Shown here piece after piece: positions 6,850 through 48,881 of a stretch of DNA of 64,000 nucleotides. The notes under the pieces are model-generated. The model worked only from the letters and a program-made list of their open reading frames with translations. It was not told the origin of the DNA and ran no database searches. How positions within the stretch are numbered: position 1 is the stretch's first letter; every line of letters begins with the position of its first letter. The DNA is from a virus. Location of the stretch: positions 14,425-78,424 of IMG/VR virus record IMGVR_UViG_3300017917_003852, one strand, 5' to 3'. Position numbers and translations under genes: made by a program.

Positions 6850-7257
6850 TTATATACTCACCTCAAATTTAAAATCGTCAGGGTCATCCACAAGTTGTGA
6901 TTCCTTAACCTCAGTCCAACGACCATCTATCCTAATTTCTAATTTAATCTTTGTTAGTTCGTTAGCCACAGCACGATCAATTTGATCCATCATTCCTGTT
7001 TTTTTGAGGACTTCAAGTCGGTGCCATTTTTTGAACGTTTCCGTTTCACACATTTTGACAAAGGCGTCTCGTTTGTTTTCCAATTGGTTACGACTAGCTT
7101 CACTATAACCTCTGGCCCCTGAGGCCCTGTGCCGACAATGAACTGCGCTGCTAGTCTTATTTCGCTTCTGCCCACCTGCACCGGTTCCTTTGGTGTATGA
7201 CCAATCACAGTCGTCCTTTGTTACGCTAAACAATAATTGTCTTTTACCGTTTTCCAT
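6850..7257 (-). CDS. RF-1 domain peptidyl-tRNA hydrolase (ArfB/PrfH-like)
   Basis: GTGAGGQKRNKTSSAV GGQ motif followed by SRNQLENK. Confidence 0.85.
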   Translation of the reverse strand: MENGKRQLLFSVTKDDCDWSYTKGTGAGGQKRNKTSSAVHCRHRASGARGYSEASRNQLENKRDAFVKMCETETFKKWHRLEVLKKTGMMDQIDRAVANELTKIKLEIRIDGRWTEVKESQLVDDPDDFKFEVSI

Positions 7258-7505
7258 TATACCCACCTTAATGCAAACTCAATTGCATCACGCTCGTTAA
7301 TAAACTGCCACACAACTTGATAGTCGAACTGATCACAGAAATTTCGGTTAATAATACGATCACGCCACCCACACCGACTGGCTTTTACGCCATGCTTTTC
7401 TTTTAACCAGTCCCACATTTCTACATAATGGTACCAATCTCGTGCAATGGTTGCGATACTGTACCGCCACAGTTTTCGATCTCGTCTTCGTTGTCGGCTG
7501 TTCAT
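7257..7505 (-). CDS. FxLRW-family mini protein
   Basis: Ends WQFINERDAIEFALRWV. Confidence 0.75.
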   Translation of the reverse strand: MNSRQRRRDRKLWRYSIATIARDWYHYVEMWDWLKEKHGVKASRCGWRDRIINRNFCDQFDYQVVWQFINERDAIEFALRWV

Positions 7506-7684
7506 GCCCACCTCAATAAAAATGAGGTTAAATCTTGTTCAGTCTTATACACAATACCAGTGGCATAAACTTCGTAGTTGCCATTTTCATCGCACCAATC
7601 TTGCATTGGATCAATTTGAGCCCAGGAGAGCCAGTCATTAAATCCAATATGGTTATAGCGACGATCAATAGTAAATTTACTCAT
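7502..7684 (-). CDS. FxLRW-family mini protein
   Basis: Ends YKTEQDLTSFLLRWA. Confidence 0.75.
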   Translation of the reverse strand: MSKFTIDRRYNHIGFNDWLSWAQIDPMQDWCDENGNYEVYATGIVYKTEQDLTSFLLRWA

Positions 7685-7902
7685 GCCCATCTCAATGCAA
7701 ACATTGTAGCATCATCTTGATTTTTGAACAACCACGAAGACTTACCAAACGCGGTAATTAACGCCCATTGTTTGTCTTTGTTTGAAGTATATAATCCACC
7801 TTCGCCCAATTGCCTGACACACCAAACTATCATATCCTCAACTTCATGATAGCGATCTCGTTCAAAATGTACCTGAAATGGATGCGTATGATCAACGCTC
7901 AT
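7681..7902 (-). CDS. FxLRW-family mini protein
   Basis: Ends WLFKNQDDATMFALRWA. Confidence 0.75.
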   Translation of the reverse strand: MSVDHTHPFQVHFERDRYHEVEDMIVWCVRQLGEGGLYTSNKDKQWALITAFGKSSWLFKNQDDATMFALRWA

Positions 7903-8117
7903 TACGCCCACTTTAATTGGAATAATACAGCATCTTGTTCGTGTTTAAAATACCATTCGGTTTGTTCCTTTGGGCCATCCAAAAATCCTAGTATATCAAT
8001 ACCTAGCTTGTACCATGCTTCGCCAAAAGGGCCTATGTTTTCTTCGCACCACTCCTGTGCCAATGGCCACTCTGGATTGTTAATTATGATGTGGTACCGC
8101 CACTCTGGATCCATCAT
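7902..8117 (-). CDS. FxLRW-family mini protein
   Basis: Ends WYFKHEQDAVLFQLKWA. Confidence 0.75.
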   Translation of the reverse strand: MMDPEWRYHIIINNPEWPLAQEWCEENIGPFGEAWYKLGIDILGFLDGPKEQTEWYFKHEQDAVLFQLKWA

Positions 8118-8386
8118 GTCTGTTTTTTTAACAAGTCCCAAGCTAATCCATCCCAGGGTTCAAACTCAACATCTATCCACCCAGGGTGGTGCCGCGGTTT
8201 TATTTCCCACCACTCATTTTTGGTATCACGATAAACTGTACGGAACTTGGAGCCATAGTATGATTGAACATATTTTATTACCCGCTCGGCATTGTTTGTA
8301 ATGCTCATAAACGGGCCGCCGAGGTCTTCTAAGAACACTATACCGTGTTCTCGGTCTATGGACAAGACATGCAGTTGTGTTCTCAT
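8114..8386 (-). CDS. conserved phage hypothetical protein
   Basis: SITNNAERV...YRDT motif. Confidence 0.65.
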   Translation of the reverse strand: MRTQLHVLSIDREHGIVFLEDLGGPFMSITNNAERVIKYVQSYYGSKFRTVYRDTKNEWWEIKPRHHPGWIDVEFEPWDGLAWDLLKKQT

Positions 8387-9400: not shown

Positions 9401-9458
9401 ATTATAGCAAAATGGGTCTTTTTGGACAACCGTTTTATTTGTTGCAATTTTAGCAACA
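9401..9458 (-). promoter_or_regulatory. early promoter plus upstream palindrome
   Basis: TTGTCC-17-TATAAT; TGTTGC-N7-GCAACA at 9440-9458. Confidence 0.8.
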
Positions 9459-11305: not shown

Positions 11306-12387
11306 GAGCGTAACCACAATACAAAGGGATCATTTACTACAATAGTTCCATCAGCTCTCTGCATATAATTTCCACCGTGTAAATCTATTGCGAATCCTTG
11401 ATCCCTACCAAACTTTGCAACTGTATGAACAGTATCTAATAAATTTTTAGTATTCACTGGCCCACCTAGATATTTAATAACTTTCTTTACGGTGTATGGA
11501 TCAATTGTGCGTTTAACTTCGTTGTAATATTCTCTGCGAGCCAGATCTTTAAGAGCTTGATTAAAGTCGCCATTGGCCATATGATCTATTGCTAGATCTA
11601 TATAACCGACTAAATGCTTTACTTGATCTGGTAATTCTTTTAAAGGTTCCATTCTAGCTTGAATGTAATTCTTACCACCAAATTGAAAACTTTCAAATCC
11701 TGAAAATTTTGGTAAATGCGGATTATCTGTGTTTGCATTACAGTAATCAATCCAATTTATGAACATACGCTGGTCGGGACTAAAATCTTTATGACCTTTA
11801 CGATAGCCAAATATGATCAATACTTGTCCAGTACCTGGCTCTAAGTATGCTTGTTTGTCGATGCCACTACCTAAGTATTTGTAACCTTTATCCATTAATA
11901 CTTTACGAACACCGCCGTGTATTTCTCCGGCCATTTCATCAATCGTATTCCATGCACCCGTAGATTTATCTAATACCTCAGCATCACCAGTGCGTCCTGC
12001 GGTCCAACGTGGTAATTTTTCTTGTGGAATTCTAACTTGTGCATTAGTTGGAATATCCTTCCAAGGGCGCCCAAAATAACCTTCAGCGTCTCCTTGGCTC
12101 CAATATTTTGTATCTGTGTCCCAAGTAGTTTTTCCAGGATTAGGATTTTTTTCAAAATAACCTGATTTTTTAGCTGCCGCTAACTCTTCTGGACTCATGT
12201 TTCTATATACATGAGTTACATCGTCGGGACTTCCAGGTACTCGACCGCCGAACATTCCGCCCTTGGGTTGATCAATATAATTTTTTACCTTAGGGGCCTG
12301 ACCCGCTGCATAATCAACAGCATCCTTACCTAGTTTCCATAACCAGGACCGTAGTCCGCCTTCATCTAAAAAATCATCTGCTCTCAT
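11302..12387 (-). CDS. leader-bearing fusion: ART-like domain plus kinase-like domain
   Basis: MRADDFLDE; HVYRNMSPEE...YWS; YLGSGIDK, DLHGGNYM, VNDPF. Confidence 0.6.
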   Translation of the reverse strand: MRADDFLDEGGLRSWLWKLGKDAVDYAAGQAPKVKNYIDQPKGGMFGGRVPGSPDDVTHVYRNMSPEELAAAKKSGYFEKNPNPGKTTWDTDTKYWSQGDAEGYFGRPWKDIPTNAQVRIPQEKLPRWTAGRTGDAEVLDKSTGAWNTIDEMAGEIHGGVRKVLMDKGYKYLGSGIDKQAYLEPGTGQVLIIFGYRKGHKDFSPDQRMFINWIDYCNANTDNPHLPKFSGFESFQFGGKNYIQARMEPLKELPDQVKHLVGYIDLAIDHMANGDFNQALKDLARREYYNEVKRTIDPYTVKKVIKYLGGPVNTKNLLDTVHTVAKFGRDQGFAIDLHGGNYMQRADGTIVVNDPFVLWLRS

Positions 12388-15299
12388 CTTGCTGGCACAA
12401 TCGTAAATGGACCGCGATCTCTAACATCGCGAGGTGCAGTAGTGGTCATCCACTGTCTTGCATATTGGTTAGCGTCGCCTTGGTTTGTGGTGTTAATAAA
12501 CGAATACACTTCTTGATCGTTACGATCTAATATTAACCAACGTGCATTACCCGGTGGCAAGCTACCTGTACCTTGTGCTTGATTTACCGGCTCAGCTTCG
12601 ATGTTTCTAATGTAATAACCATTGGCGTCTAATTGCCTACGCACATAGTCCATAGCAGCATTGGAATTCGCTGCTGACACAGTTACATTAGTAGTTCTAC
12701 CATCTGTTCCAGTGTAAGTTACACGATATCGTTCTTGCCCAACACTACCAGCTGGAACCGGTTCTCCTGTTGTTGCTGGTATTGCACGTTGTCTTGCAAG
12801 TTCTGCACTGCTACCGGGAATACCTCTACCCTCTATACGACGCCAACCATAAGTTTCTGTATCATCATCTATACCGCGTCCTGCTAACCAATCAGAATAT
12901 TTTCTCGATGCTTCTTGATCTGTATTGGCAATAAATCTAAACACAGGACGATATGGTACTGTACTACGATCTACGATTTCGTAATTAGCGTCAGAACTTT
13001 GTTCGCCACCAACCGCAGGGAAGTCACGCCCTGCACTAGCAGGTTGGCCACTAAGTAAGTATGCACGATTTTGTTCCATGTCGATGATACGAATATCTTC
13101 GCGAGGAATTCCGCGTCTATTCCTTATATTATCTGCTATAGTTTGAATATAAGTCCATGTGCCTTGCTGCCCAGGAAGTAATACTTCACCGTCGTAATTA
13201 TTAATGATAGAATAAATTGCCGGACCTGGTCTATTGGTGCTGCCGGATTCTCTTGATCGCATCTGTGGGCGAACATAAACAGGATCATCAAATCCTGTTT
13301 GCTCTTGCCATCTTGCAGCATGACGCTCGGCGTCGGCAACCAAATTACCAATACCACTTATAGTATGAACAACTTCATTAGAGTTTCTACTTACTACTTC
13401 CCAAGTGCCGGTAAATTCTTGATCTTGGCTTCTTGGTGTTTGCTGTGTATGTCTTTCTACGCGAATGTCAGCAAATGGCACATAGGAGAATCTACCTGGA
13501 TGTTCCATAGTCGCTATTTGTCGTGCCGCATAGTCTGATGTGGCACGAACTACTACTCCGCGTTCTCTGTCGTGTTCAGGATAAACCAAATAGTCTCGTG
13601 CATTAGAATCTGGCTCATTCGCTTCAATTGACGCAATTTCTAATTCAGTAGCTGGTCGTTGAGGTACTGCACGCCATCCTCGTGTAAATTCTTCCACGGA
13701 TCGTCCTGCAATGTTCAGACTCCACTTTAATATAGCACGAGCTTTAGCTTGTTCGGGACTGGTAGCAATGACTTCGGTACCTTGGCTTTGGTAAGGCGAG
13801 TCTGGAGAACCAAACACCATCCAAACAAATGGTACATCTAAGTTTGCATCGCCTTGTTGTTTTCCAATTTGTCGCTTCTGCTGAATTTGTCGAACAAAAC
13901 TCTTTAGTGCTTGCTTAGGCAATTCACCAGCTGCATATTTGGCAAAGTATTGAATACTATCATCTTCTTTGCCTTGTGTTAAAGTCTTATATAACTTTTT
14001 GTAATATTCTTGTTTATATTCTTCGGGCTTGGTAGCAACATCTAATGCCACCACAGCTCGCAATAGTGTGTTCTTAACATTACCTATACTGCCGCTACCG
14101 CTCATCCAGTCTCCGCCCGGACCTCGGAATTCAATCCACTTGTCACGATTATTAATACTGGTAAATTTCTCTGTTGATCCGGTGTGTAGTATTTTGCTGG
14201 CTAATTGATTAAGACCACCTTGGAACTGTCTCATCATTTCTTCAACACGATCTGGATTGTTTCGTGCTTGCAACACAATTTTCTTTAGCGCAGATTTACA
14301 GTAAGTATTACCTTCACGACCAAATTGTTCAAGAACGTAATTGTCGCCTAAGAACATGGCCAACTTTACATAATCAAGATTCTGTTGATTAGGAACGCTA
14401 ACATTCATATGTAAGCCGGTGCTGTCATTAGTATAAGCACCTACTCTATTAGCCCACTTTATCACCTTATCTATATCCGACAGCATTTCGGGAACGGTCA
14501 ATGGAGGACTAACGAACTCTAAGCCAGACTCACCATCGTCACCGTGTAAGCTACCATCAGGTTCTACTACATAATGCCCAGGTCGTCTTGTGGCACCATG
14601 ATAGCTAGATGCAGAATTCACCGGACGATCTATTGCATTACTAAAATCATCAGCTATGTCATCGATGCTAGTTCCACCGCCACCATAATAGTCTGGCTCG
14701 GTCCAATATGGCCATTCTAGATCATATTCGTTAGCAAAGCTTGACATATATTCTATGTCTTCCTCTTCTAGATATTCTACAAATCGATCGTCGGCTTCGT
14801 CATTAAATTCATCTAATAGCTGCTCGCGAATATCGTCTTCGTGTTCGTCGATGTATGCTCGAAGAGCGATTTCATATTCTTCAGTGGTGTCGTAATCGCC
14901 TTCACTTACATATTCTGTGGCAATTTCCAGTGCTCGCTCATTCCCAGAGTCAGAATCCATCCACTCGTTGAACTTTTCATCCATCCAGCCCCAGAAGTTT
15001 TCATTGAGTTCATCAATTTTTCTTTGGATCACCCCGGTGCTGCTGCCCATCGAGCCGCCACGGAAGAAACTAATGACATCTCTCGCCCACCCGGGTCCAG
15101 TAGGAAAACTCTCATCATACTCGTAGTCAGGTTCAGATTCAAACTCATCTTCTTCATCACCAAAATAATTCGGAACAATCAATTCAAATTCCATGCCTAC
15201 TCGAGCATCAATATTTGCTGCCATTTTTGTTAAATTAGTTGGGCTCATATTAAGCTCAAATAATTCATCTTCACTTAAATTAAATTCGCGATATCTCAT
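12384..15299 (-). CDS. putative amidoligase (COOH-NH2 ligase) with C-terminal repeats
   Basis: GMEFE, EPDGSL, GLEFVSPPL, STGLHMNVS, IEFRGPG; MRYREFNLSE leader. Confidence 0.8.
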   Translation of the reverse strand: MRYREFNLSEDELFELNMSPTNLTKMAANIDARVGMEFELIVPNYFGDEEDEFESEPDYEYDESFPTGPGWARDVISFFRGGSMGSSTGVIQRKIDELNENFWGWMDEKFNEWMDSDSGNERALEIATEYVSEGDYDTTEEYEIALRAYIDEHEDDIREQLLDEFNDEADDRFVEYLEEEDIEYMSSFANEYDLEWPYWTEPDYYGGGGTSIDDIADDFSNAIDRPVNSASSYHGATRRPGHYVVEPDGSLHGDDGESGLEFVSPPLTVPEMLSDIDKVIKWANRVGAYTNDSTGLHMNVSVPNQQNLDYVKLAMFLGDNYVLEQFGREGNTYCKSALKKIVLQARNNPDRVEEMMRQFQGGLNQLASKILHTGSTEKFTSINNRDKWIEFRGPGGDWMSGSGSIGNVKNTLLRAVVALDVATKPEEYKQEYYKKLYKTLTQGKEDDSIQYFAKYAAGELPKQALKSFVRQIQQKRQIGKQQGDANLDVPFVWMVFGSPDSPYQSQGTEVIATSPEQAKARAILKWSLNIAGRSVEEFTRGWRAVPQRPATELEIASIEANEPDSNARDYLVYPEHDRERGVVVRATSDYAARQIATMEHPGRFSYVPFADIRVERHTQQTPRSQDQEFTGTWEVVSRNSNEVVHTISGIGNLVADAERHAARWQEQTGFDDPVYVRPQMRSRESGSTNRPGPAIYSIINNYDGEVLLPGQQGTWTYIQTIADNIRNRRGIPREDIRIIDMEQNRAYLLSGQPASAGRDFPAVGGEQSSDANYEIVDRSTVPYRPVFRFIANTDQEASRKYSDWLAGRGIDDDTETYGWRRIEGRGIPGSSAELARQRAIPATTGEPVPAGSVGQERYRVTYTGTDGRTTNVTVSAANSNAAMDYVRRQLDANGYYIRNIEAEPVNQAQGTGSLPPGNARWLILDRNDQEVYSFINTTNQGDANQYARQWMTTTAPRDVRDRGPFTIVPAR

Positions 15300-25739: not shown

Positions 25740-26447
25740 GCGTTCTTTAAAATATACATAGTTAAATCAACTGCATCGAGTCTAACAGTTTCGTAAGGAT
25801 ATTTACGATAATCTGCATCGTTCCATTTGCGGCGGCGAGTATCTAAACTTTGTATGCTTAACATTTTTGGATTAAGTTTAGTAATCTTACCAATCATTAA
25901 TCCATTATGATCCGGAAATGCTACTGCATCTCCAACGACAAGGGCTCTACCTAGTTTGTCTTGATGTTCGTAAATCATGATATTGCGCTGCCTAGTCCAG
26001 TAGGGCAGTTGTTTTGTATGCAAACATATCCCATTGCACCTTCTAATAGCAACCCGCATTTTGGACATTTGTTTGACACTTGGGTAGTTACTTCAGGAAC
26101 ATCCTGCCAGTCTGACCATTGATAATTTGCAGTTCTTAACATATCTTCATTTGACCAGTTTAGTCCTGCACGAATGGTAACATCGTATTTCTGACGATAT
26201 TGTAGTCTGCGACTGTTATCGTTATTCACTAGCCAACGCATTTCGATCATTTATTCTGCTCCGCTTGTTGAAAACATTCTAAACAAAGTACATAGGTTCT
26301 AGGGCCACCCATGCCGCTAACAATTCGATTACATTGACTACAACCAATTACTGCGGCAGTATAAATGTAACCTTCTTTTAGTTCTTCAATAGGTCGCCAG
26401 TTACCCGAGTGTGTTCGTTCCCAACCTATAATGTTTGTATCATCCAT
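25736..26447 (-). other. three small early hypothetical ORFs (SH3-like; two Zn-ribbon proteins)
   Basis: DKLGRALVVGDAVAF; CPKCG...C; CSQC...CLEC. Confidence 0.55.
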
Positions 26448-26478
26448 AGTATAATAATAGCAGTTAATTGATTAAATG

Positions 26479-26811
26479 TCAATTCCACATTAAGGCAATA
26501 TGACTAGCATAAATGGCATGTTTCGCTCTCATCCGGATAGTTAGACGTCCGTTTTGTTCGCCGGTTTCGATATTTCTTCCGTGCCATGCTAATTGCCAAT
26601 CCCAATCCCAACCTTGGCGTCCGATCCATTGTTCTAAAAATGGACGGTAATGATCATTTGGGTCTGCGGATTCGAACCCTATCCAAACAGCTCCACCTAA
26701 GTCTGCCCATCGGGGATCATTATGATCTACTACTATTTCGCCTGAAGGCCATTTTACATCTATTTCAATGTAATCAACTAACCACCAATATAATTTTTTA
26801 AAGATGCTCAC
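26479..26811 (-). CDS. divergent FxLRW-family-like protein
   Basis: FLEQWIG...WDW...ASHIALMWN. Confidence 0.5.
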   Translation of the reverse strand: MSIFKKLYWWLVDYIEIDVKWPSGEIVVDHNDPRWADLGGAVWIGFESADPNDHYRPFLEQWIGRQGWDWDWQLAWHGRNIETGEQNGRLTIRMRAKHAIYASHIALMWN

Positions 26812-27010
26812 GGTACGGATAAACCTTTCTTACACGATAATTATGACAATGAGAACAATAACGAGTTTGGATATATTTGTCTGTATTTTTATTAACTTGA
26901 TATGGCTTACACCACCGTGTCCAAGAATGCCAACCAAAGTTGCACCAAAAACTAGTTACTAGTGGTTCTTCATCCTTTAATATCCTAGCTGTATTTTCAA
27001 CTTCGTTCAT
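26798..27010 (-). CDS. small Zn-binding phage protein
   Basis: WCNFGWHSW...RYCSHC. Confidence 0.6.
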   Translation of the reverse strand: MNEVENTARILKDEEPLVTSFWCNFGWHSWTRWCKPYQVNKNTDKYIQTRYCSHCHNYRVRKVYPYREHL

Positions 27011-27240
27011 TTTACCCCAAATTTTAAAGCAAATAGTATAGCAGGTTCTTCCCACTCAAATTGAAAAATATCGTAAGTTCGTTGATGCACACTTCCCCAT
27101 TCTACATGAAAACGACGAAAGTGTTTTCCTTCAGTATTATAGTTTAAACACCAGTTATACATTTCTTCTGTGCATTTTGGCACACGAATTCTATACCTAA
27201 AATACGGACGATGCCCACCTTCGCAATGAAAGTATTCCAT
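27007..27240 (-). CDS. FxLRW-family mini protein
   Basis: EMYNWC...FQFEWEEPAILFALKFG. Confidence 0.7.
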   Translation of the reverse strand: MEYFHCEGGHRPYFRYRIRVPKCTEEMYNWCLNYNTEGKHFRRFHVEWGSVHQRTYDIFQFEWEEPAILFALKFGVK

Positions 27241-27617
27241 TAGTAATTGTACTCAAACGTACCCCAACCTAGTAAGGTTCTAGGTGTGTTTTTTCGAGCT
27301 TGTATCCACATGTAACCATCTTTGTCGTATTCGCTAAACCAATCTACATAACTTTTGTTGTAAAGAATATCTTGCATTTCCCAAAGATAATTTTTTGGAT
27401 ACTGATAACATGGATCGTCTCCTTTGTATCGACGCCGCATCGGCAATTTTTGCGATGGGTGTTCTGATAGTACCATCAAAAGATGCTCTTGTTCTAACTC
27501 CTTAAGGGTAATAGGAACGAAGTTTGCCTTATGATACAAACTAGGCAAAGCTCGATCGACCACTTTGTTGTAATCGTATTCTCGAATAATAACTCTGCGT
27601 CGTAATTGTTTCTTCAT
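27240..27617 (-). CDS. hypothetical protein
   Basis: ORF track; ATGA-coupled. Confidence 0.6.
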   Translation of the reverse strand: MKKQLRRRVIIREYDYNKVVDRALPSLYHKANFVPITLKELEQEHLLMVLSEHPSQKLPMRRRYKGDDPCYQYPKNYLWEMQDILYNKSYVDWFSEYDKDGYMWIQARKNTPRTLLGWGTFEYNY

Positions 27618-27862
27618 GCAAACCTCAGTGCAAATTTTACAGCAATTTGTGAATCATCAAACCAAAATATATTGCCCGTCCATGAATAACGATTAGGATG
27701 ATTTTTACTAAGCCAACCGTGTATTTCGCCCCATTTCATATAGTTGGCGTGTATTGGAATATAGCCGGCACGCTCAAACTGTTCGCAGTGAGTTTCATGT
27801 ACCACAGGAGAACCGTCGAGCTGTGTCCGAATAAATGTTCTAATCGGTATTAACTCACTCAC
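27614..27862 (-). CDS. FxLRW-family mini protein
   Basis: FWFDDSQIAVKFALRFA. Confidence 0.75.
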   Translation of the reverse strand: MSELIPIRTFIRTQLDGSPVVHETHCEQFERAGYIPIHANYMKWGEIHGWLSKNHPNRYSWTGNIFWFDDSQIAVKFALRFA

Positions 27863-28119
27863 GCAAACCTCAGTGCAAATTCTGTAGCAGCCTTTTCGTC
27901 TCGAAAGACAAACATAGTATCTGTAGTTTCTAAATCCTCTACATCACCTACAATCCATTGATTATAATAGCACCAGTCGTCACCGTTAAGCCAGTGGTTA
28001 ATCGATCCTTCTCGACCGCCATAACGAGCACTGCCTTGTCCGGCATTTGCTGCTAGCCAAGATTCAATTTCCGCCTTTTTATCTCGCATTGTGTTGAAAG
28101 GTACTTTAACTTTGTTCAT
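27859..28119 (-). CDS. FxLRW-family mini protein
   Basis: FVFRDEKAATEFALRFA. Confidence 0.75.
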   Translation of the reverse strand: MNKVKVPFNTMRDKKAEIESWLAANAGQGSARYGGREGSINHWLNGDDWCYYNQWIVGDVEDLETTDTMFVFRDEKAATEFALRFA

Positions 28120-28372
28120 TGCCTGCCCATCTTAATAAGAATAATGCTTTTTGTTTCTTATTACTAAAATAAAAAGTTTTATTATAGTATCCCCACTCAT
28201 CTTCCATGACTTCATCTAACCATTTGCAGCGTTGGACAATATCGTCATTATATAATAAAGTATCATACATCTCATACGATTCCGGATATTGCAGTTCTAG
28301 CAGCAAAGTTTGGTCCATGGCATCAGCTAGTTCCTTTGCTACTCGATTTACATATTCTTCTGCTATGTCCAT
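28106..28372 (-). CDS. FxLRW-family mini protein
   Basis: FYFSNKKQKALFLLRWA. Confidence 0.75.
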   Translation of the reverse strand: MDIAEEYVNRVAKELADAMDQTLLLELQYPESYEMYDTLLYNDDIVQRCKWLDEVMEDEWGYYNKTFYFSNKKQKALFLLRWAGNEQS

Positions 28373-28617
28373 TATGCCCACCTCAATAAAAACCAAGCGA
28401 ATTTCTCTTCATTAACAACTCTATAATCTTCGATAGTTATTAACCTCGCGTCCATTTCTATTTCTATACCATACTCATCTAGTATGCGATGCAATTGTGC
28501 GTCATATCTTGGACTGCCGGTGATTACTCGTGCTTGCCCGGTAATGGGCCAAGATCGGTGCTGCCCTTCTTCGTTCCATTCTCTACTTAGAATTTTCTGT
28601 AGTTCGCCGGGTGTCAT
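28372..28617 (-). CDS. FxLRW-family mini protein
   Basis: VVNEEKFAWFLLRWA. Confidence 0.75.
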   Translation of the reverse strand: MTPGELQKILSREWNEEGQHRSWPITGQARVITGSPRYDAQLHRILDEYGIEIEMDARLITIEDYRVVNEEKFAWFLLRWA

Positions 28618-28823
28618 GCCCACCTCAATGCAAAATGTACAGCATCTTCTCTATTTTCAAATTGAATAAATTTGTCAGTAGTCCAACCAGGATTGTGAAA
28701 ATACATACCTGTGCAATTCTCTTCTAACCACCGATCAACTAACCAATCCTTGTAACTGCGACGAAATCGGCTTTGGATATTATCGTAATCGTATTTGGCA
28801 TATACTACTGTGTGTAAAGGCAT
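28614..28823 (-). CDS. FxLRW-family mini protein
   Basis: IQFENREDAVHFALRWA. Confidence 0.75.
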   Translation of the reverse strand: MPLHTVVYAKYDYDNIQSRFRRSYKDWLVDRWLEENCTGMYFHNPGWTTDKFIQFENREDAVHFALRWA

Positions 28824-29020
28824 TATCCGCCCCACCTAAGCATAAAGAATGTAGCATCCTCTTGACGCTTGAACACAAAGTAAAGACCGTTGTTGCGCCA
28901 ATTGCCACTTTTAAAATTCTCGTAGCAAAATCTCTGCAACCTTTCGGATTGCCCCCAAGCATCTACTTCAGGAAGCATACGAAATTGATGCGGCCAATAT
29001 TTTTTATTATAGGTTTGCAT
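28823..29020 (-). CDS. FxLRW-family mini protein
   Basis: FVFKRQEDATFFMLRWGG. Confidence 0.75.
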   Translation of the reverse strand: MQTYNKKYWPHQFRMLPEVDAWGQSERLQRFCYENFKSGNWRNNGLYFVFKRQEDATFFMLRWGG

Positions 29021-29291
29021 AGTCTGCGGTTAATGCATTTAAAATAACTTGATTGCGTTCAGCTTGCCAACTTTTAAGCCAAGGAGTACGATCACATTCC
29101 TCAATGTGTTTTAAAATTTGAGTGCGGCTACTAGATTCAATTGCTTCATGTAATCCAATCATCATAACTGGTTGTCGCCAACGATATACTACTATACACA
29201 TTTTGTCATCGGGATGCAAGTTCCATGCCCACTCATAAGGGTAATCACCATCAAGATCTGGAATATCACTTAAATGTTTAAATTTCGTCAT
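29007..29291 (-). CDS. hypothetical protein
   Basis: ORF track. Confidence 0.55.
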   Translation of the reverse strand: MTKFKHLSDIPDLDGDYPYEWAWNLHPDDKMCIVVYRWRQPVMMIGLHEAIESSSRTQILKHIEECDRTPWLKSWQAERNQVILNALTADYANL

Positions 29292-29673
29292 AATAATCCT
29301 CTACCACAACCCAACCTAACTTTTGAAAGTCTTCTCTAATCTCATCAGTAATAACACTTTCTGCTACATACTTTCTTAGATCAAATCCTTGCGCTAGTGC
29401 TGCTTCGTAGTCAATTTCTTCTGGATTGCCGCGAATACCCGAACAATACCAATTCATGTAATCACCTTCGCACCGAATGTCGGCAACTACGCCACCGGCA
29501 TAGCGCCAAGTACAGGACCATATAGCATCTTTAAGTATAGGCACGACTTCCATTTTTTGGAATGCATTATTGCATAGTGCGGCATAAAGATTTTGTGAGT
29601 ATGCGTCACTGGCACGTACTTTATCCACAAACCACTTTGCGTCTTTCATGTCTCGTTCTAAATTGTAATCCAT
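29278..29673 (-). CDS. conserved phage hypothetical protein
   Basis: YSQNLYAALCNN...WSCTWRYAGG...DYMNWYCSG. Confidence 0.7.
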   Translation of the reverse strand: MDYNLERDMKDAKWFVDKVRASDAYSQNLYAALCNNAFQKMEVVPILKDAIWSCTWRYAGGVVADIRCEGDYMNWYCSGIRGNPEEIDYEAALAQGFDLRKYVAESVITDEIREDFQKLGWVVVEDYYDEI

Positions 29674-29867
29674 TATTGTCCTTCCCATTTTAACTGAAAT
29701 AACATTGCATCCTGTTCGTTGGTGAATTCAAACTCGTATCGAAGATACCAATCTTCATCCGCAAGTTCGCTTTCATATACTAGCCAACAAACAAAACTAG
29801 GGCAATTTTCTCTTGCCCAAGTTGAGAGTTCAATCTCGTCGATGTCAAATAATACTACTATTGCCAT
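29673..29867 (-). CDS. FxLRW-family mini protein
   Basis: FEFTNEQDAMLFQLKWE. Confidence 0.75.
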   Translation of the reverse strand: MAIVVLFDIDEIELSTWARENCPSFVCWLVYESELADEDWYLRYEFEFTNEQDAMLFQLKWEGQ

Positions 29868-30094
29868 TTTAGTAAAAAATTACTAGCGTCTGCTTCGTTT
29901 TCTATAACTACCACCATACCTTGTTGATGTTTCCGTCCGTTAGGCAAGCACTGATCCATCCATGCATATATTTCTGGCTCATTGTCCGTCCACCAACGAA
30001 AGTCAGTGATGATTATGTAATAATATGGCATCTCTTCATCAAACGGACCGGTGGCGATAAATCTGCCTTTGTCGTCTGGAAACACTACGCTCAC
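29858..30094 (-). CDS. FxLRW-family mini protein
   Basis: IENEADASNFLLKWQ. Confidence 0.75.
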   Translation of the reverse strand: MSVVFPDDKGRFIATGPFDEEMPYYYIIITDFRWWTDNEPEIYAWMDQCLPNGRKHQQGMVVVIENEADASNFLLKWQ

Positions 30095-30535
30095 TGTTTT
30101 TGTTCCTTTTCTTTAGGTGCTTTTACTGCACAAATGGCAACAAAGCCTTTGCCATCCCATTCTTTACGAGCATCCATACACGCTTGATAATCGGGATATT
30201 CTTTTTTGTAAATGAATTTTATTTGTGGTGGCGGATCAGTCCAAAGTTGCACAACCAATATCCAAGGCATTAAGTCTAACATATCAGTTCCTTAATATTT
30301 CAAAAGTCCATTTAGCACTATCGGGATCTACTTCAAACCATAATTGATTACTTTCGTCTAGCCATACAGTAAAACCTTTACTGGTAAAAAAATCTACAGC
30401 AATTTGTTTAAATCGTTGATCATCGTAGTCAGGAATAGTTTTAGCTTCTTTTTGAATAGCATGTAGTTCATTGGTATAATAATTTAGAATATGAGCGTGA
30501 AACCATTCGGGTGCGTATCTAAAAGAGAATTGCAT
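30091..30535 (-). other. two small hypothetical ORFs (30091-30282; 30284-30535)
   Basis: ORF track; the second is a possible distant FxLRW relative (ends WTFEILRN). Confidence 0.55.
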
Positions 30536-30536
30536 T

Positions 30537-30761
30537 TCAACTCCACCTTAACAAAAAAGTCATCATTTCTTCTTCAGTATCAAACTGCCAAAGATCGAAA
30601 CTCATACGACGCCCACAATTATGTTCTTGGCACCACTCTTGTGCGGGCATTAACATGTGCTCACGCAAGCCAGTTGGTGTTACTGCACCATGTTCGTGAG
30701 CTAATTGTACTCTTAACCAATAACCTTGAGGGCGAGGCCAAGACTCCCATACTAATTTCAT
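30537..30761 (-). CDS. FxLRW-family mini protein
   Basis: AQEWCQE...WQFDTEEEMMTFLLRWS. Confidence 0.75.
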   Translation of the reverse strand: MKLVWESWPRPQGYWLRVQLAHEHGAVTPTGLREHMLMPAQEWCQEHNCGRRMSFDLWQFDTEEEMMTFLLRWS

Positions 30762-31108
30762 GTTATTTTTATTCTGTCAGTATTGGCTCTATTGCTATAC
30801 ACTTTATAACCGCGCTCTCGCATTAGATCTGCTGCTGCCTGAGGACTGTCATCGAACATTAGTTCGAGATCCTCTTTAGTAATATCATTGCTGCAATCGA
30901 TGGCGTACAGTTCATAATGCCGCTGACTATTAACTCTGGCCCTTAGTAGCATTTGTTGAAGCATACCATTCATTGGATTGCGAACAGGCTCTTCGTCATT
31001 GAGAATCCTAAAAGTATTTTCTGCGTCCCAGTGTTCATACTGAGTGATAGGAATAATGCTTTCTAGTCCTTCTTCACACCAATAAACAAGATATGCGTTA
31101 GTAGTCAT
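30758..31108 (-). CDS. conserved phage hypothetical protein
   Basis: WCEEGLE...LRARVNSQRHYELY. Confidence 0.65.
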   Translation of the reverse strand: MTTNAYLVYWCEEGLESIIPITQYEHWDAENTFRILNDEEPVRNPMNGMLQQMLLRARVNSQRHYELYAIDCSNDITKEDLELMFDDSPQAAADLMRERGYKVYSNRANTDRIKIT

Positions 31109-31332
31109 AGATATTTTATTTGAAAAAATGTTGCTCGAGCCGGATCGTCAAAGTCTAATCTAATATCAGTTGCACGTTGATTATATTCATCGTAACAAAA
31201 ATGTGTTCTAACTGTAAAACCCAATTCTCTTTTTAAACGCCAGGTTATTAAAAAAATTTTATCGCCGTGCTCGTTCTCAATGCGTTGGCGCAAAGTTTTC
31301 CATTCTGGTTTGCTAAAGATCAAAGTGGTCAT
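31105..31332 (-). CDS. FxLRW-family-like mini protein
   Basis: LDFDDPARATFFQIKYL. Confidence 0.65.
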   Translation of the reverse strand: MTTLIFSKPEWKTLRQRIENEHGDKIFLITWRLKRELGFTVRTHFCYDEYNQRATDIRLDFDDPARATFFQIKYL

Positions 31333-31337
31333 ACTGC

Positions 31338-31366
31338 ATTATAGCAGTATATTTAGATTAGGTCAA
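31338..31366 (-). promoter_or_regulatory. early sigma70 promoter heading mini-gene array B (leaderless first gene)
   Basis: TTGACC-17-TATAAT with TG extension; ATG 5 nt after the -10. Confidence 0.8.
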
Positions 31367-31710
31367 GCTATCCAGCCTTGTCCGGTTATCTGATGATACC
31401 AGGGATAAAACGGTCCGACTACAATAAACTGCCAATCGCTAGTTATCCATGCGGTCGCCGGATTGGCAAGATGTTGGTACTTGGGTAGCACTTCGTGCCC
31501 GTTTATTGTTATTTTTGCAACTTCTACTGCACCGTTGCTAATCTTACAACTAAAGTTTAACCCTTCTAGTAAATCAAAATACATTGTTGATTTTACCGGC
31601 TGATTATTCACTGTAAAATGATATTTTGGATTATGGTGCTCAACTAAATGAATCTTTACTTCAATTTGATTAGCTGTATCAATATCCGTAATGTCTAAGA
31701 AATTTTTCAT
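31363..31710 (-). CDS. hypothetical protein
   Basis: ORF overlapping the radical SAM 3' end. Confidence 0.6.
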   Translation of the reverse strand: MKNFLDITDIDTANQIEVKIHLVEHHNPKYHFTVNNQPVKSTMYFDLLEGLNFSCKISNGAVEVAKITINGHEVLPKYQHLANPATAWITSDWQFIVVGPFYPWYHQITGQGWIA

Positions 31711-32989
31711 ATCTTGGTGCATAATCTAAAATGGAATTTCCCCGCAGGGATTCAAACGCTTTTAAAAAGGATATTAAATTGTATCTTAATTCCTCGACAT
31801 TTTTTGGTACGTTATAGTCGCAAATAAATTGATAGTAATCTAGTATAATGTTTGCAGTAGCCTGGTCAATTTGATTAGTTTGTCTGACATTAACTAAATT
31901 TTCTTTAGTAAGTCGATATTTTTTAATTAATGTTTGTAATTTTTCTTTAATCTCTTGACGTATGTCTTCGGGCATTATTTCCATGCGAAGCCACTCGGGT
32001 CTATACAGTATATTACAACTTTCTGATATTACTTTATTGTTAATCATAAACTCAAATAATTTATCTAATTCGTATATAGAAAAAATATTAGGTGTAATTC
32101 GTAAAGAAATAACTAGTCCGGAATTCTCTTTTCTTAGTTGTAAAAAATTATCTATGTTCGACAGTATTTCTGTAATTTGTCCAGGCCAGCGTATATAATC
32201 GTTAATAGGATCTACAGATTCTATACTAATACCTAAATGAAATTGTTCAAAATGTCCTATTAGATTATGGATTCGTTGATTATATATTGTGCCATTTGTT
32301 GTGGTGCCAACAATTATATCTTTAGCTAAATCATGCTCAATTAATTTTTCACAGATAGTATAAAATGCTTCTTCGTATAATGTTTCTCCTCCTAAGAAAT
32401 GTATATAACGAAGATTAGGAATTTCTTTTAGTTCTTCAATGAATTGATTTATTAATGTTTGGTCCTTAGTCCAAGATTCAATTTTTTCAGGTTTCAAAAA
32501 TAATTTAGAATTTATTTTGTGTAGCTTATGAAATTCTTGTTCTAGTTTGCTGCTTGCTTCGGGTCTGCACATTATACAAGCACTATTACATGTATTACCT
32601 AGTTCAACTTGTAATTCAACTGGCGCTAAATTTGCTTCACCGTTATTATTAAAACTATATTCAAAGTTTTTGTAATGCGGACTGCTTCTAAAAGTTTTTA
32701 GAAAGTCATTTGTATCAACAGCACTTTTATTAAGTTGTCTCATACGTCCGTTTAACTTACCAAAACTTTCTTCATAATAACAAATGGAACAATGATTAGG
32801 TTCTTCGCCGGCCAATAACTGTTGGCGAAGAATTTTCATCTGATCGCTGTTGTAATATTGCATTATCGATTGATTACTAAACGAATGGAGCCGTTGTGGA
32901 TTTTTAGCCCAACTACATGACTCAAAACTTCCGTCGTAGGTAAGTCTCACGTGGAACCACGGACTAGAACAAAAAGTTTTTTCAAACAT
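31679..32989 (-). CDS. radical SAM protein with N-terminal twitch/SPASM-like Cys cluster
   Basis: CNSACIMC (CxxxCxxC), FLGGE, TTNGT; N-terminal FCSSPW...CSIC. Confidence 0.9.
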   Translation of the reverse strand: MFEKTFCSSPWFHVRLTYDGSFESCSWAKNPQRLHSFSNQSIMQYYNSDQMKILRQQLLAGEEPNHCSICYYEESFGKLNGRMRQLNKSAVDTNDFLKTFRSSPHYKNFEYSFNNNGEANLAPVELQVELGNTCNSACIMCRPEASSKLEQEFHKLHKINSKLFLKPEKIESWTKDQTLINQFIEELKEIPNLRYIHFLGGETLYEEAFYTICEKLIEHDLAKDIIVGTTTNGTIYNQRIHNLIGHFEQFHLGISIESVDPINDYIRWPGQITEILSNIDNFLQLRKENSGLVISLRITPNIFSIYELDKLFEFMINNKVISESCNILYRPEWLRMEIMPEDIRQEIKEKLQTLIKKYRLTKENLVNVRQTNQIDQATANIILDYYQFICDYNVPKNVEELRYNLISFLKAFESLRGNSILDYAPRYEKFLRHYGY

Positions 32990-35930: not shown

Positions 35931-36442
35931 ACATGCCCAGTGATTTGTAAAGTATAACGAGGCTCAAATCCCATGTTATATGCTCCGTGGGGAGCATCCC
36001 ATGGCCATACTAATGTAAAGCCTGCCTTCCATTCTGAGTAGCCGGTGCCTTGACACTCTGCAAAGTGCCCGGGCTTGCGATCTTCGAGAAATATAACTGC
36101 TCGCCTAATAGAACTTTCTTTTCCTTTTAAGTTAAAGAGCTCAATATATTTGCGATATGTATCAATATGTTCAGGTAAGCTACTACCAGGATCCATGCGA
36201 TAATATGATGTACCAACGTCTTTCCAATGCTCATATCTTTCAAAAAAATCAATAAATCTTTTATTCCATGTAGGTTGTGTATTACGCATGTCGCACATCC
36301 AACCACCAAAAGGTCCCCGGAATCCTGCATCTTCCCAATCTATTTCTGTTGTAGGATCATTGAATTTTTCTTTAATGTAATTGAGATTTTTAAATTCGTC
36401 GTCCCAAAATTTTTCTAAGTTAAATGATTCGTGTGTTGCCAT
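35927..36442 (-). CDS. cupin/2OG-Fe(II) oxygenase-like protein
   Basis: PEHIDTY (HxD) and distal PHGAYN...RYTLQITG. Confidence 0.75.
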   Translation of the reverse strand: MATHESFNLEKFWDDEFKNLNYIKEKFNDPTTEIDWEDAGFRGPFGGWMCDMRNTQPTWNKRFIDFFERYEHWKDVGTSYYRMDPGSSLPEHIDTYRKYIELFNLKGKESSIRRAVIFLEDRKPGHFAECQGTGYSEWKAGFTLVWPWDAPHGAYNMGFEPRYTLQITGHV

Positions 36443-37646
36443 AGTATATTACCTCATACTCCTTACTTGTTTTGTATTGTCTCCATGGATCTACAATAAC
36501 ACTCCCTGGTTCTAGATCCACGTATAATTCTTGTTCTTTCTCCTTGCCGGTATAACCGTAAGTGATATTTCTGTTATGCGCCAAGAATGCAATTACCGGC
36601 ATTCCATCAAACGGTGGTTGATCACCAGTTAGTGGATCAATGTAAAAATATTTTGCTTGTATTTCATCTAGGTAGTGCCCTATTAATAAACTATAACTAC
36701 CGTCGCAATAATCAACATCGGGCTTATAGGCTTTGCCCATAATAAAGATAGGAAGATTTTTTTGTATTTGAATTCGTTTAAGATATCTTGCTAGGTTCTT
36801 TGCTTGTTGCTCTCTAGCATGCATTACAGTATCAAAGATATCATAGCCTAGATTTAAGTTTTCTGCTAACCAACGTAATGCAATGTTATCTCTTGGATGA
36901 CATGGGCCGGCATCACCCATGCCTGCAGTCATGTATTTTGAACTCATAATACGTGTAGTACTCTTGGCTAATGCATCTGTAACTACATCTACATTAATAT
37001 TACCGTTCTTCATTGCAACATCTTGAATCATATTTACTAGACCAACCTTAGTACTAATAAAAGTATTATAGAAAATTTTAATAGATTCTGCTTCGTCCCA
37101 TGTACCTACAACATAGCGAGGATCATTTTGCATCAATGGTTGATAAAAATCTATTAGCAGTTTTGCATCACCAGTTTCGCTACCATCTTCAGTGCCAATG
37201 ATAACCATTTCAGGATTGACCATATCCCACTCTACACTTCCCATTGCAATAAGATAAGGGTTGTAAATGAAACGTGCATTAGTAATACATGGCCTAAGTT
37301 CTCTTCTAACTGTTCCTGGGAGTACTGTAGAAATAAGGACAACTAATTGTTCAGGGCCGACCCAGGCATCAATTTGACTTAGTACTTCTTTTACTATTGT
37401 ATAATCAAAATCTTTATTAGGCAAATGTGTAATGGGTTTTGATCCATCGTAGTCGGGATCATGCGGAGTTTGTACGGCCACAAAAATAATATCCTTTCCA
37501 ACAACTGCGCCACGAAGATTGTCGGATATTTTAATCACCCCACTGGATTTTGGGTAAATATCATAGCCGGTGACTTCATAATGCGTTGCCATTACTTCTG
37601 CACACGGCAACCCCAATTTACCAATTCCTATAAACCCAACTTGCAT
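36420..37646 (-). CDS. ugd: UDP-glucose/GDP-mannose 6-dehydrogenase
   Basis: GIGKLG, VQTP, STVLPGT, ESIKIFYN, GDAGPCHPRD, AYKP. Confidence 0.88.
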   Translation of the reverse strand: MQVGFIGIGKLGLPCAEVMATHYEVTGYDIYPKSSGVIKISDNLRGAVVGKDIIFVAVQTPHDPDYDGSKPITHLPNKDFDYTIVKEVLSQIDAWVGPEQLVVLISTVLPGTVRRELRPCITNARFIYNPYLIAMGSVEWDMVNPEMVIIGTEDGSETGDAKLLIDFYQPLMQNDPRYVVGTWDEAESIKIFYNTFISTKVGLVNMIQDVAMKNGNINVDVVTDALAKSTTRIMSSKYMTAGMGDAGPCHPRDNIALRWLAENLNLGYDIFDTVMHAREQQAKNLARYLKRIQIQKNLPIFIMGKAYKPDVDYCDGSYSLLIGHYLDEIQAKYFYIDPLTGDQPPFDGMPVIAFLAHNRNITYGYTGKEKEQELYVDLEPGSVIVDPWRQYKTSKEYEVIYYGNTRII

Positions 37647-47258: not shown

Positions 47259-47731
47259 TGACCCCTTAGTGCTTTATCGGCTTCACTTGCTGCTACACGC
47301 TTACGCAGGCTACTAGAACTAAACGAATGATCTCTTCCATTGAATACTATTTGAATGCCGCGATTATAACATTCCACATCACCAGTGAATGGTTTATCTG
47401 CATATTCTACACCTAGTATTCTAACATCCAAAGGAAGAATTAAAAGTAAGTCTATAAGATCTTGCTCGGTCTGGTATACAACCACCTCATCAACATAACG
47501 GCACGCCGCGAGTTGTATTTGCCTTTCAACGATTGACTGTACAGGTTTATTTTTAGTGTCTGGGCGGTCAATCGTGGGATCAGTTTGTAGCCCGGCAATA
47601 AGATAGTCGCAATGATTCTTAGCCTCGGCCAGCATAGCAACATGTCCCGCATGGAGCATGTCGAAGGTTGAAAAAGTAATCCCAATCTTAAGTCCTTTGT
47701 CCTTAAGTTCTCGAATATGATTGAATATCAT
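47255..47731 (-). CDS. cytidylyltransferase (TagD-like)
   Basis: TFDMLHAGH, VDEVV, RDHSFSSS. Confidence 0.9.
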   Translation of the reverse strand: MIFNHIRELKDKGLKIGITFSTFDMLHAGHVAMLAEAKNHCDYLIAGLQTDPTIDRPDTKNKPVQSIVERQIQLAACRYVDEVVVYQTEQDLIDLLLILPLDVRILGVEYADKPFTGDVECYNRGIQIVFNGRDHSFSSSSLRKRVAASEADKALRGQ

Positions 47732-48042: not shown

Positions 48043-48057
48043 GTTATTGTCTAATTA

Positions 48058-48083
48058 AGTGGAGGGAAAGAACCCCTCCACTG
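48058..48083 (-). terminator. hairpin downstream of hsp20
   Basis: AGTGGAGGG/CCCTCCACT inverted repeat. Confidence 0.55.
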
Positions 48084-48638: not shown

Positions 48639-48881
48639 CTATTTTGGATTCTTAAATTCAAATCTGTGTGATGCATAAGAATGTGGTTCCCAAGTTAATG
48701 CAAATTGTGTATATTCTTTATCGTTATTAAGGCACAACCGAAATGTATATTTGTGTATTTTGGTTCGATATTTAATATCGTATTTTTCAGCCCAAGCTTC
48801 AATATCTTTTTTAATTAACTGAAGAGCATGCTGTGCAGACATTCCGCCTGCACCCATTGGCAAGCGAAATTCAATATACAT
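48639..48881 (-). CDS. orphan FxLRW-family-like protein
   Basis: DIEAWAEKY...LNNDKEYTQFALTW. Confidence 0.55.
   Translation of the reverse strand: MYIEFRLPMGAGGMSAQHALQLIKKDIEAWAEKYDIKYRTKIHKYTFRLCLNNDKEYTQFALTWEPHSYASHRFEFKNPK

What the first reader, a model, noticed from the sequence alone, without database searches (positions are those of the whole stretch)
26479..31366. Large expansion of a divergent mini-protein family (F-x-L-[RK]-W) in early arrays
Seen: about 11-13 genes here, 4 at 7257-8117 and 1 at 48639 encode mostly 60-90-aa proteins. They share a central W-[CL]-x-E-N-like helix and a C-terminal F-x-F-x-x-E-x-D-A-x-x-F-x-L-[RK]-W, with hypervariable sequence elsewhere. Both arrays lie downstream of strong sigma70-type early promoters (31338 and 9401) and are translationally coupled. 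Inference: a diversified small-scaffold repertoire with a constant docking helix and variable surface, such as anti-defence binders or adaptors to one common partner. I recognise no described function for it.
Basis: partly seen in the sequence, partly recalled or inferred. Interest (0 to 1): 0.85.

Follow-up and report, generated by a model that had tools for sequence, protein, structure and literature searches.

The report
Expanded small-protein family in jumbo phages
A fragment of an uncultured giant phage carries 15 old, very different copies of one unnamed small protein domain in two tightly packed gene rows, and related giant phages carry up to 21 copies; the family is real, but its function is unknown.

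Summary
Fifteen minus-strand genes of 60-96 aa (11 at 27007-31332, 4 at 7257-8141) form one family. Leave-one-out HMMs recover 13 of 15; two are marginal. The ORF at 48639 is not established as a member.

The window belongs to a 78-kb IMG/VR phage fragment, about 20% of a roughly 390-kb genome. It encodes a betaproteobacterial-type tmRNA.

The family matches nothing in Pfam, PHROGs, NCBIfam or PDB. A profile search still finds 355 protein clusters, all unnamed or called hypothetical. Related jumbo-phage contigs hold arrays of 5-21 copies. Distant scattered copies occur in the cultured phages PA5oct and Atu_ph07.

Two AlphaFold models, built from different alignments, give a small beta-alpha-beta-beta-alpha sandwich with no convincing structural neighbour.

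The paralogues are ancient. Members usually match another genome better than their own, the two close orthologue pairs tested show purifying selection, and array size differs between relatives.

The conserved positions are mostly aromatic or aliphatic, so they look like a fold core rather than a docking helix. The L-R-W end also carries the next gene's ribosome-binding site.

Best reading: host-polymerase-transcribed, translationally coupled host-interaction proteins. An anti-defence role is untested. This scan noted the same stretch before, on this genome only.

The parts
31338..31366 (-). Sigma70-like promoter TTGACC-17-TGcTATAAT. The ATG of the first array gene follows the -10 element after only 5 nt, which suggests a leaderless transcript.
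   Evidence: The syntenic site in relative L019 (8398-8427) has the same layout.
31105..31332 (-). Divergent subfamily member (ends ...TFFQIKYL), first gene of array B.
   Evidence: Deep profile E 0.007; leave-one-out E 0.12. The AF2 model built from 5 orthologues only has pLDDT 82 and topology beta-alpha-alpha-beta-beta-alpha. Orthologues occur in G010, G002, G003 and G007.
30537..30761 (-). Family member (ends ...TFLLRWS).
   Evidence: Leave-one-out E 1e-4; profile E 9e-9. ATGA overlap with the upstream gene.
29858..30094 (-). Family member (ends ...NFLLKWQ).
   Evidence: 74% identical orthologue in G010.
29673..29867 (-). Family member (ends ...LFQLKWEGQ).
   Evidence: 58% identical orthologue in G010.
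28823..29020 (-). Family member (ends ...FFMLRWGG).
   Evidence: 62% identical orthologue in G010.
28614..28835 (-). Family member. The likely start is ATG 28823, a TAATG overlap. This is the protein modelled in the first structure prediction.
   Evidence: Leave-one-out E 8e-9. AF2 pLDDT 74, topology beta-alpha-beta-beta-alpha. Start analysis.
28372..28623 (-). Marginal family member (ends ...WFLLRWA). The likely start is ATG 28617.
   Evidence: Leave-one-out E 2.4. The deep profile gives E 0.06 for the C-terminal motif only.
28106..28396 (-). Family member (...LFLLRWAGNEQS). The likely start is ATG 28372.
27859..28119 (-). Family member (ends ...EFALRFA).
   Evidence: 64% identical orthologue in G010.
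27614..27862 (-). Family member (ends ...KFALRFA).
27007..27240 (-). Family member (...LFALKFGVK), the last member of array B.
7902..8141 (-). Family member, first of array A. The likely start is ATG 8117.
   Evidence: Leave-one-out E 1e-10. 91% identical orthologue in L001. The Atlas record starts at residue 9.
7681..7911 (-). Family member. The likely start is ATG 7902.
   Evidence: 86% identical orthologue in L001 with dN/dS 0.14.
7502..7690 (-). Family member. The likely start is ATG 7684. Absent from the close relative L001.
7257..7511 (-). Family member. The likely start is ATG 7505. Absent from the close relative L001.
9401..9429 (-). Sigma70-like promoter TTGTCC-17-TGcTATAAT, 1.3 kb upstream of array A. 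It has a normal leader with an AGGAG site.
48639..48881 (-). Possible remote relative only (...YTQFALTWEP...). It is not counted as a member.
   Evidence: No profile hit at E <= 0.1. hhalign probability 25% over 19 columns.

Best explanation
These genes are an ancient multigene family encoding one small stand-alone domain of about 65 residues with topology beta-alpha-beta-beta-alpha. A core of three Trp, three Phe, one Leu and one Cys is kept. The N-terminal segment and the loop after helix 1 differ freely in sequence, length and charge.

The genes sit in tandem rows behind near-consensus sigma70 promoters. They are therefore most likely transcribed by the host RNA polymerase soon after infection, as polycistronic RNA. 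Translation passes from gene to gene through overlapping stop and start codons. In most junctions the AGG-TGG codons of the L-R-W end also serve as the Shine-Dalgarno site of the next gene.

Each paralogue is kept under purifying selection, and relatives hold different subsets of them. The most likely role is a set of small binding proteins, each with its own target in the infected cell. That target could belong to host takeover, to counter-defence, or to modulation of host or phage machinery.

Shown: the family, its spread, its copy numbers, its age, the coupling and the codon bias. Predicted: the fold. Inferred: early timing. Speculative: the binding role.
For: - Family membership: leave-one-out HMMs and 15 deep-profile hits in the contig.
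- Spread: 355 clusters at E <= 1e-3 among 1.84 billion representatives. Nearest Atlas clusters are 96-100% viral.
- Arrays elsewhere: 21 copies in a complete 344-kb genome, 15 in a 317-kb contig, and 5-7 in smaller fragments.
- Shared lineage marker: beta-type tmRNA above the Rfam cut-off in 4 of 5 of these records.
- Fold: two AF2 models from different alignments, pLDDT 74 and 82.
- Core-like conservation.
- Variable charge: pI 4.05-10.0.
- Age: 68 of 72 members have their best hit in another genome; median 67 bits against 28 bits within the genome.
- Selection: dN/dS of 0.02 and 0.14, against 0.03-0.23 for flanking genes.
- Copy-number differences at syntenic loci: 11 against 6, and 4 against 2.
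- Promoters before arrays in three genomes.
- Stop/start overlaps.
- Codon bias: AGG at 8 of 10 motif arginines against 6.9% genome-wide, P = 2e-8.
Against: - 'Early' therefore rests on promoter consensus matches only.
- The distant homologues in PA5oct (EST35_0247, _0274, _0275) lie among DNA-metabolism genes. They lie outside the terminal-repeat region that the PA5oct paper calls early (PMC7318152).
- No target, partner or fused domain gives a functional hint.
- Strong purifying selection and ancient paralogy fit a stable phage-internal role as well as they fit host antagonism.
- The fold models have middling confidence, and no structural neighbour rises above background.
Confidence: 0.45

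Rival explanations
1. Phage-internal accessory subunits or adaptors. The domain docks onto the phage's own replication, nucleotide-metabolism, translation or proteolysis machinery. The paralogues serve different phage enzymes rather than attacking host targets.
For: - Distant members in PA5oct and Atu_ph07 are scattered next to RNR, thymidylate synthase, a DNA polymerase III subunit, ClpP, MazG, RNA ligase and a phosphatase.
- The two close orthologue pairs are under purifying selection as strong as their neighbours.
- The paralogues are ancient and individually conserved.
Against: - Copy content differs between close relatives, 4 against 2 and 11 against 6. That is unusual for essential subunits.
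- In this lineage the genes are grouped behind sigma70 promoters among ORFans, not beside enzymes.
Confidence: 0.17
2. One reading: anti-defence binders or adaptors that use the invariant C-terminal helix to dock on one common partner and present variable surfaces.
For: - A nearly invariant R/K (97%) sits in the C-terminal helix between core residues.
- Sequence and charge vary widely elsewhere.
- The position behind early-type promoters.
Against: - The conserved helix residues are mostly hydrophobic and fit a buried face.
- Part of the R-W conservation is explained by ribosome-binding-site use.
- No candidate common partner was found.
- No anti-defence family match is known to me, and none was testable here.
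Confidence: 0.12
3. Small nucleic-acid-binding or ligand-binding regulators with a KH-, RRM-, ACT- or eIF1-like two-layer fold. They would act on RNA or translation in a phage that already carries tmRNA, bS21, an RF-1-domain protein and ClpS.
For: - Both models draw weak hits to KH, RRM and ACT domains. One also draws EF-G domain IV and eIF1 hits. Z ranges from 3.6 to 5.6, and Foldseek E from 0.6 to 2.5.
- The 31105-31332 model has the order beta-alpha-alpha-beta-beta-alpha, the same order as a type I KH domain.
- Translation-related genes lie in the window.
Against: - All structural scores lie in the range the tool calls background (Z under 8).
- There is no GXXG loop between two helices.
- The members are not uniformly basic; median pI is 5.8.
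- The profile search against PDB found nothing better than E 0.28.
Confidence: 0.1
4. The repeated gene end is kept mainly at the DNA level, as a ribosome-binding site and recombination cassette junction, and the proteins have little function.
For: - AGG codon bias at the motif.
- The only DNA-level repeats in the arrays are the 19-31-nt gene ends.
Against: - Conserved W36, W51 and F59 lie far from the gene end.
- Lys (AAA/AAG) replaces Arg in 26% of members, which removes the Shine-Dalgarno match.
- dN/dS is far below 1.
- The motif is also kept in scattered single copies in PA5oct and Atu_ph07.
Confidence: 0.03

Closest known systems
Hypothetical proteins of cultured jumbo phages: Pseudomonas phage PA5oct EST35_0275 (QCG76156.1), EST35_0274 and EST35_0247; Agrobacterium phage Atu_ph07 AUZ95037.1 and AUZ95034.1
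   Same: The same domain by profile. hhalign gives 96% probability (E 5e-9) for EST35_0275 and 87% (E 4e-6) for AUZ95037. The W-C-x-E-N and F-x-F...[DE]-A-x-x-F-x-L motifs are present.
   Different: They occur as 3-5 scattered copies among DNA-metabolism genes, not in arrays of 15-21. The terminal R-W is often lost. They are equally uncharacterised, so they add no function.
Host-takeover module of Bacillus phage SPO1 and the clustered small early genes of T4 and T5 (from my general knowledge, not tested here)
   Same: Rows of many small genes behind strong host-type promoters, tightly packed, mostly ORFans, and thought to redirect the host.
   Different: As far as I know, those modules consist of unrelated genes. 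Here one domain family supplies 11 of 19 genes in the row, and it recurs across distant genomes.
Multigene families of large eukaryotic DNA viruses, such as ASFV MGF110/360/505 and poxvirus ankyrin or Bcl-2-like families (from my general knowledge)
   Same: One scaffold in many diverged tandem paralogues, with copy content differing between strains. Used for host interaction.
   Different: A different domain and a different virus realm. No recent duplicates are seen here except one 52%-identical pair in G006, so there is no sign of an active 'accordion'.
Small two-layer alpha/beta domains (KH, RRM, ACT, ferredoxin-like dimers, MzrA, T4 Arn)
   Same: The general arrangement of a three-stranded sheet packed by two helices. 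Z is 3.6-5.6 over 52-71 residues.
   Different: Scores lie within background. There is no sequence signal and none of those families' signature motifs.

Membership tests
The W-C-x-E-N ... F-x-L-[RK]-W family itself (unnamed) | A significant match to a profile built without the tested sequence | tested here: met
   13 of 15 window genes score E 1e-3 to 1e-10 in leave-one-out tests. 28372-28623 and 31105-31332 are marginal. 48639-48881 fails.
The W-C-x-E-N ... F-x-L-[RK]-W family itself (unnamed) | A shared fold among divergent members | tested here: met
   Two AF2 models from different alignments give beta-alpha-beta-beta-alpha (pLDDT 74) and beta-alpha-alpha-beta-beta-alpha (pLDDT 82). These are predictions only, and no direct superposition tool was available.
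Any curated protein family (Pfam-A, PHROGs v4, NCBIfam) | An HMM match at or near the curated threshold | tested here: not met
   No consistent family for the 15 window members or for 134 relatives. Only isolated chance hits, one or two members each.
KH domain (type I) | Topology beta-alpha-alpha-beta-beta-alpha with a GXXG loop between helices 1 and 2 | tested here: inconclusive
   One model has this element order, and KH chains appear at Z 3.7-5.0, which is within background. No GXXG loop is conserved in the alignment.
DNA-mimic anti-restriction proteins (Arn, Ocr type) | A uniformly and strongly acidic surface | tested here: not met
   pI runs from 4.05 to 10.0; 19 of 91 members are basic. 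T4 Arn matches only at Z 4.7.
Known anti-defence families (anti-CRISPR, anti-restriction, anti-CBASS and similar) | Homology to a characterised inhibitor, or inhibition shown in an assay | not testable with these tools
   No anti-defence profile library is on hand. The PDB profile search gave nothing.
Early (host-RNAP-transcribed) phage genes | Transcription in the first minutes of infection from host-type promoters | tested here: inconclusive
   Near-consensus sigma70 sites precede arrays in three genomes. No expression data could be obtained.

The most novel reading that the evidence does not exclude
The arrays are a phage-encoded repertoire of 15-21 single-scaffold binders. Each would neutralise or redirect a different host factor, defence systems included. 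This would be a bacterial-virus counterpart of the immune-evasion multigene families of large eukaryotic DNA viruses. The dual-use L-R-W/Shine-Dalgarno gene end would let any member be inserted into or removed from the row while staying translationally coupled.
Probability: 0.2. Interest if true: 0.8.

Novelty: new variant of a known kind. Interest (0 to 1): 0.52.

Why it matters
Jumbo phages are full of ORFans, and few of these can be grouped. Here one unnamed domain accounts for 15-21 genes per genome in a group of uncultured phages of about 320-390 kb. Those phages probably infect Betaproteobacteria. The domain also reaches the cultured phages PA5oct and Atu_ph07.

That reach makes the family experimentally approachable. 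The PA5oct and Atu_ph07 genes can be deleted, expressed and pulled down in standard hosts. If the members prove to be target-specific binders, the family would give a ready set of natural small scaffolds and a new source of host-takeover or counter-defence proteins. It also deserves a Pfam or PHROG entry.

Tried and rejected
- DNA searches (megablast, blastn) and tblastn of four members against GenBank phages found nothing.
- The family profile found nothing in Pelagibacter phage Mosig, XacN1, SCTP-2, two huge uncultured phages (LR756508, LR756501) or BcepSauron.
- A search for fused forms longer than 168 aa found nothing; this is weak evidence.
- Structure searches gave no clear match. Foldseek against PDB had no hit at E <= 1e-3. 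VIA-align reached best Z 5.6 and 5.5. BFVD returned only uncharacterised phage proteins.
- Relatives cannot be drawn for a virus record.
- The PA5oct paper does not name gp247, gp274 or gp275, and no supplementary files are held.
- Literature searches found no description of the family.
- I considered and rejected 26479-26811, 30284-30535 and 49121-49480 as members.
- I did not run a complex prediction, because no specific binding claim is made.


Full report
**What is there**

ORF listing shows a run of small minus-strand genes. Their products end in F-x-L-[RK]-[WF] and carry a central W-[CL]-x-E-N. Eleven lie between 27007 and 31332, and four lie between 7257 and 8141.

I tested each of the 15 with leave-one-out profiles: an HMM built from the other 14 and scored against all 545 ORFs of the contig. 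Thirteen are recovered at E 1e-3 to 1e-10, and no unrelated ORF scores better than E 0.016.

Two members are marginal. For 28372-28623 only the C-terminal motif matches. 31105-31332 belongs to a divergent subfamily.

It gives no profile hit at E <= 0.1, and hhalign gives 25% probability over 19 columns. ORFs 26479-26811 and 30284-30535 inside the stated interval are unrelated.

**Setting**

The window is the last 64 kb of a 78.4-kb IMG/VR virus record that CheckV rates 20% complete. The whole genome would therefore be near 390 kb.

The window also encodes:
- virion proteins, an RNR small subunit and a UvdE endonuclease;
- ClpS, Hsp20, ribosomal protein bS21 and an RF-1-domain protein;
- a permuted tmRNA of the betaproteobacterial type, RF01850 at 144.8 bits.

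The nearest cultured phages are very distant.

**Is the family known?**

None of the 15 members, and none of 134 relatives, matches a consistent Pfam, PHROG or NCBIfam family. A profile search of PDB sequences gives nothing better than E 0.28.

A profile search of 1.84 billion cluster representatives nevertheless finds 355 clusters at E <= 1e-3. Nearly all are 50-120 aa, and a few are two-domain tandems. Every source name is 'hypothetical protein' or blank. The nearest Atlas clusters are 96-100% viral. No form fused to another domain was found.

**Copies per genome**

| Record | Size and status | Copies | Position |
|---|---|---|---|
| G000 (this contig) | 78 kb, 20% complete | 15 | two arrays |
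| G004 | 344 kb, complete, terminal repeats | 21 | 18 in one row at 5.5-13.9 kb |
| G006 | 317 kb, 89% complete | 15 | mostly 0.6-5.7 kb |
| Smaller fragments | 8-159 kb | 1-7 each | tandem where several are present |

G004, G006 and G012 also carry a beta-type tmRNA above the Rfam cut-off. The expansion therefore marks a group of jumbo phages with probably betaproteobacterial hosts.

The same profile finds 3 scattered copies in Pseudomonas phage PA5oct and 5 in Agrobacterium phage Atu_ph07. hhalign gives 96% and 87% probability for the best of each. All are annotated as hypothetical. Six other large phages gave no hit.

**Fold**

AlphaFold2 on 28614-28835 with the 134-sequence alignment gives strand 8-11, helix 28-40 (holding W-x-E-E-N), strands 45-47 and 56-59, and helix 62-72. 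Confidence is pLDDT 74 and pTM 0.61.

A second model, for the divergent 31105-31332, used only five of its own orthologues. It gives the same order with one extra helix, at pLDDT 82. So the refutation test 'members do not share a fold' is not met, within the limits of prediction.

Structure searches return only generic two-layer alpha/beta domains (KH, RRM, ACT, EF-G domain IV, eIF1, MzrA, T4 Arn). Their scores are Z 3.6-5.6 or Foldseek E above 0.5, which the tool calls background. Uncharacterised phage proteins also appear.

**Which positions are conserved?**

In the 134-sequence alignment the near-invariant positions are W36, C37 (76%), W51, F57, F59, D64, A65, F68, L70, R/K71 and W72. All but D64 and R/K71 are aromatic or aliphatic.

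I read this as the hydrophobic core of a 65-residue domain plus a helix cap, not as a docking surface. This is an inference, because I could not inspect coordinates.

Outside these positions the paralogues share 18-40% identity. Across 91 members pI ranges from 4.05 to 10.0.

**Age and selection**

For 68 of 72 members in seven genomes, the best match lies in another genome. The median score is 67 bits there, against 28 bits within the same genome. The paralogues therefore pre-date the split of these phages and are kept as orthologues.

Against the close relative L001, the two shared members give dN/dS of 0.02 and 0.14. Flanking genes give 0.03-0.23. dS is near 1, so these values are rough.

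Against the syntenic contig G010, family orthologues are 27-74% identical and flanking genes 41-85%.

Gene content still varies. The syntenic row has 6 members in 2.3 kb in G010 against 11 in 6.1 kb here. L001 has 2 members where the window has 4. Only one recent-looking duplicate, 52% identical, was seen. DNA-level repeats are limited to the 19-31-nt gene ends.

**Expression signals**

A near-consensus sigma70 site (TTGACC-17-TGcTATAAT) ends 5 nt before the ATG of the first gene of array B. The orthologous site in G010 has the same layout. G004 has an 11-of-12 site just before its first member. The site at 9429-9401 lies 1.3 kb upstream of array A.

Within the rows, stop and start codons overlap as ATGA, TAATG or GTGA. 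The 'MGM', 'MGV' and 'MGR' N-termini in the ORF list are GTG-extension artefacts.

The motif arginine is AGG in 8 of 10 cases, against 6.9% of arginine codons in 38 long ORFs (binomial P = 2e-8). This yields GAGGTGG 5-10 nt before the next start.

Protein-level selection is still primary, for three reasons:
- Lys replaces Arg in 26% of members.
- The other conserved positions lie far from the gene end.
- Scattered single copies in PA5oct and Atu_ph07 keep the motif.

**Interpretation**

The data support an ancient, individually conserved multigene family built on one small scaffold. It is packed into coupled rows behind host-type promoters, and its membership varies between relatives.

I consider a set of small binding proteins with different targets in the infected cell the most likely role (confidence 0.45). 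Anti-defence is one possible subset of that role.

Three points weigh against it. There is no expression or interaction evidence. The PA5oct homologues lie outside the region that paper calls early (PMC7318152). Strong purifying selection fits a phage-internal accessory role about as well.

**Novelty**

The domain is undescribed, and the size of the expansion is unusual for phages. The general phenomenon of clustered small early genes and viral multigene families is familiar. I rate it a new variant of a known kind, of moderate interest. Its practical value is that cultured homologues exist for testing.

Noticed in passing
window 31338-31366, 26454-26482 and 3509-3537 (minus strand); also two sites upstream of the window, and L019 8398-8427: Several near-consensus sigma70 sites (TTGAC[AC]-17-TATAAT, often with an extended -10) are followed after only 5-7 nt by the ATG of an ORF: 31332, 26447 and 3502. 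This suggests leaderless early mRNAs. Other promoters (22063, 9429, 5429) have normal leaders with GGAG sites. The layout is conserved at the syntenic site in a relative with about 60% protein identity.
   Followed up: partly
window 250-660 (minus strand): A permuted two-piece tmRNA of the betaproteobacterial type (RF01850 at 144.8 bits, RF04321 at 149.3 bits), with tag ANAANDEVFALAA. The same type occurs in three other jumbo-phage records that carry the family. This points to betaproteobacterial hosts.
   Followed up: partly
window 47731-49117 and 6850-7266: A phage-encoded ClpS adaptor (47731-48042), Hsp20 (48097-48549) and ribosomal protein bS21 (48881-49117). An RF-1-domain GGQ protein (6850-7266) sits directly after array A. 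That gene and two family members are absent at the syntenic site of the close relative L001.
   Followed up: partly
window 7257-8141 and 27614-28835: The L-R-W codons (TTG AGG TGG) double as the Shine-Dalgarno site of the next gene. AGG is used at 8 of 10 motif arginines against 6.9% genome-wide (P = 2e-8). The longest-ORF calls therefore start 2-4 codons too early, at a GTG inside the upstream gene's end.
   Followed up: yes
window 26247-27055, 27240-27617, 29007-29688, 30091-30535 and 30758-31108: The other small genes interleaved with array B are ORFans with no Pfam or PHROG match. Several have homologues next to the arrays of other genomes: 29278-29688 in G002, 27240-27617 in G003 and 30758-31108 in G010. 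The rows therefore share more than the one family.
   Followed up: partly
window 12384-15299 and 31679-32989: A 971-aa protein with an Amidoligase_2 domain, and a radical SAM/SPASM protein next to a UDP-glucose dehydrogenase-like gene (36420-37646). These are auxiliary enzymes of unknown role.
   Followed up: no
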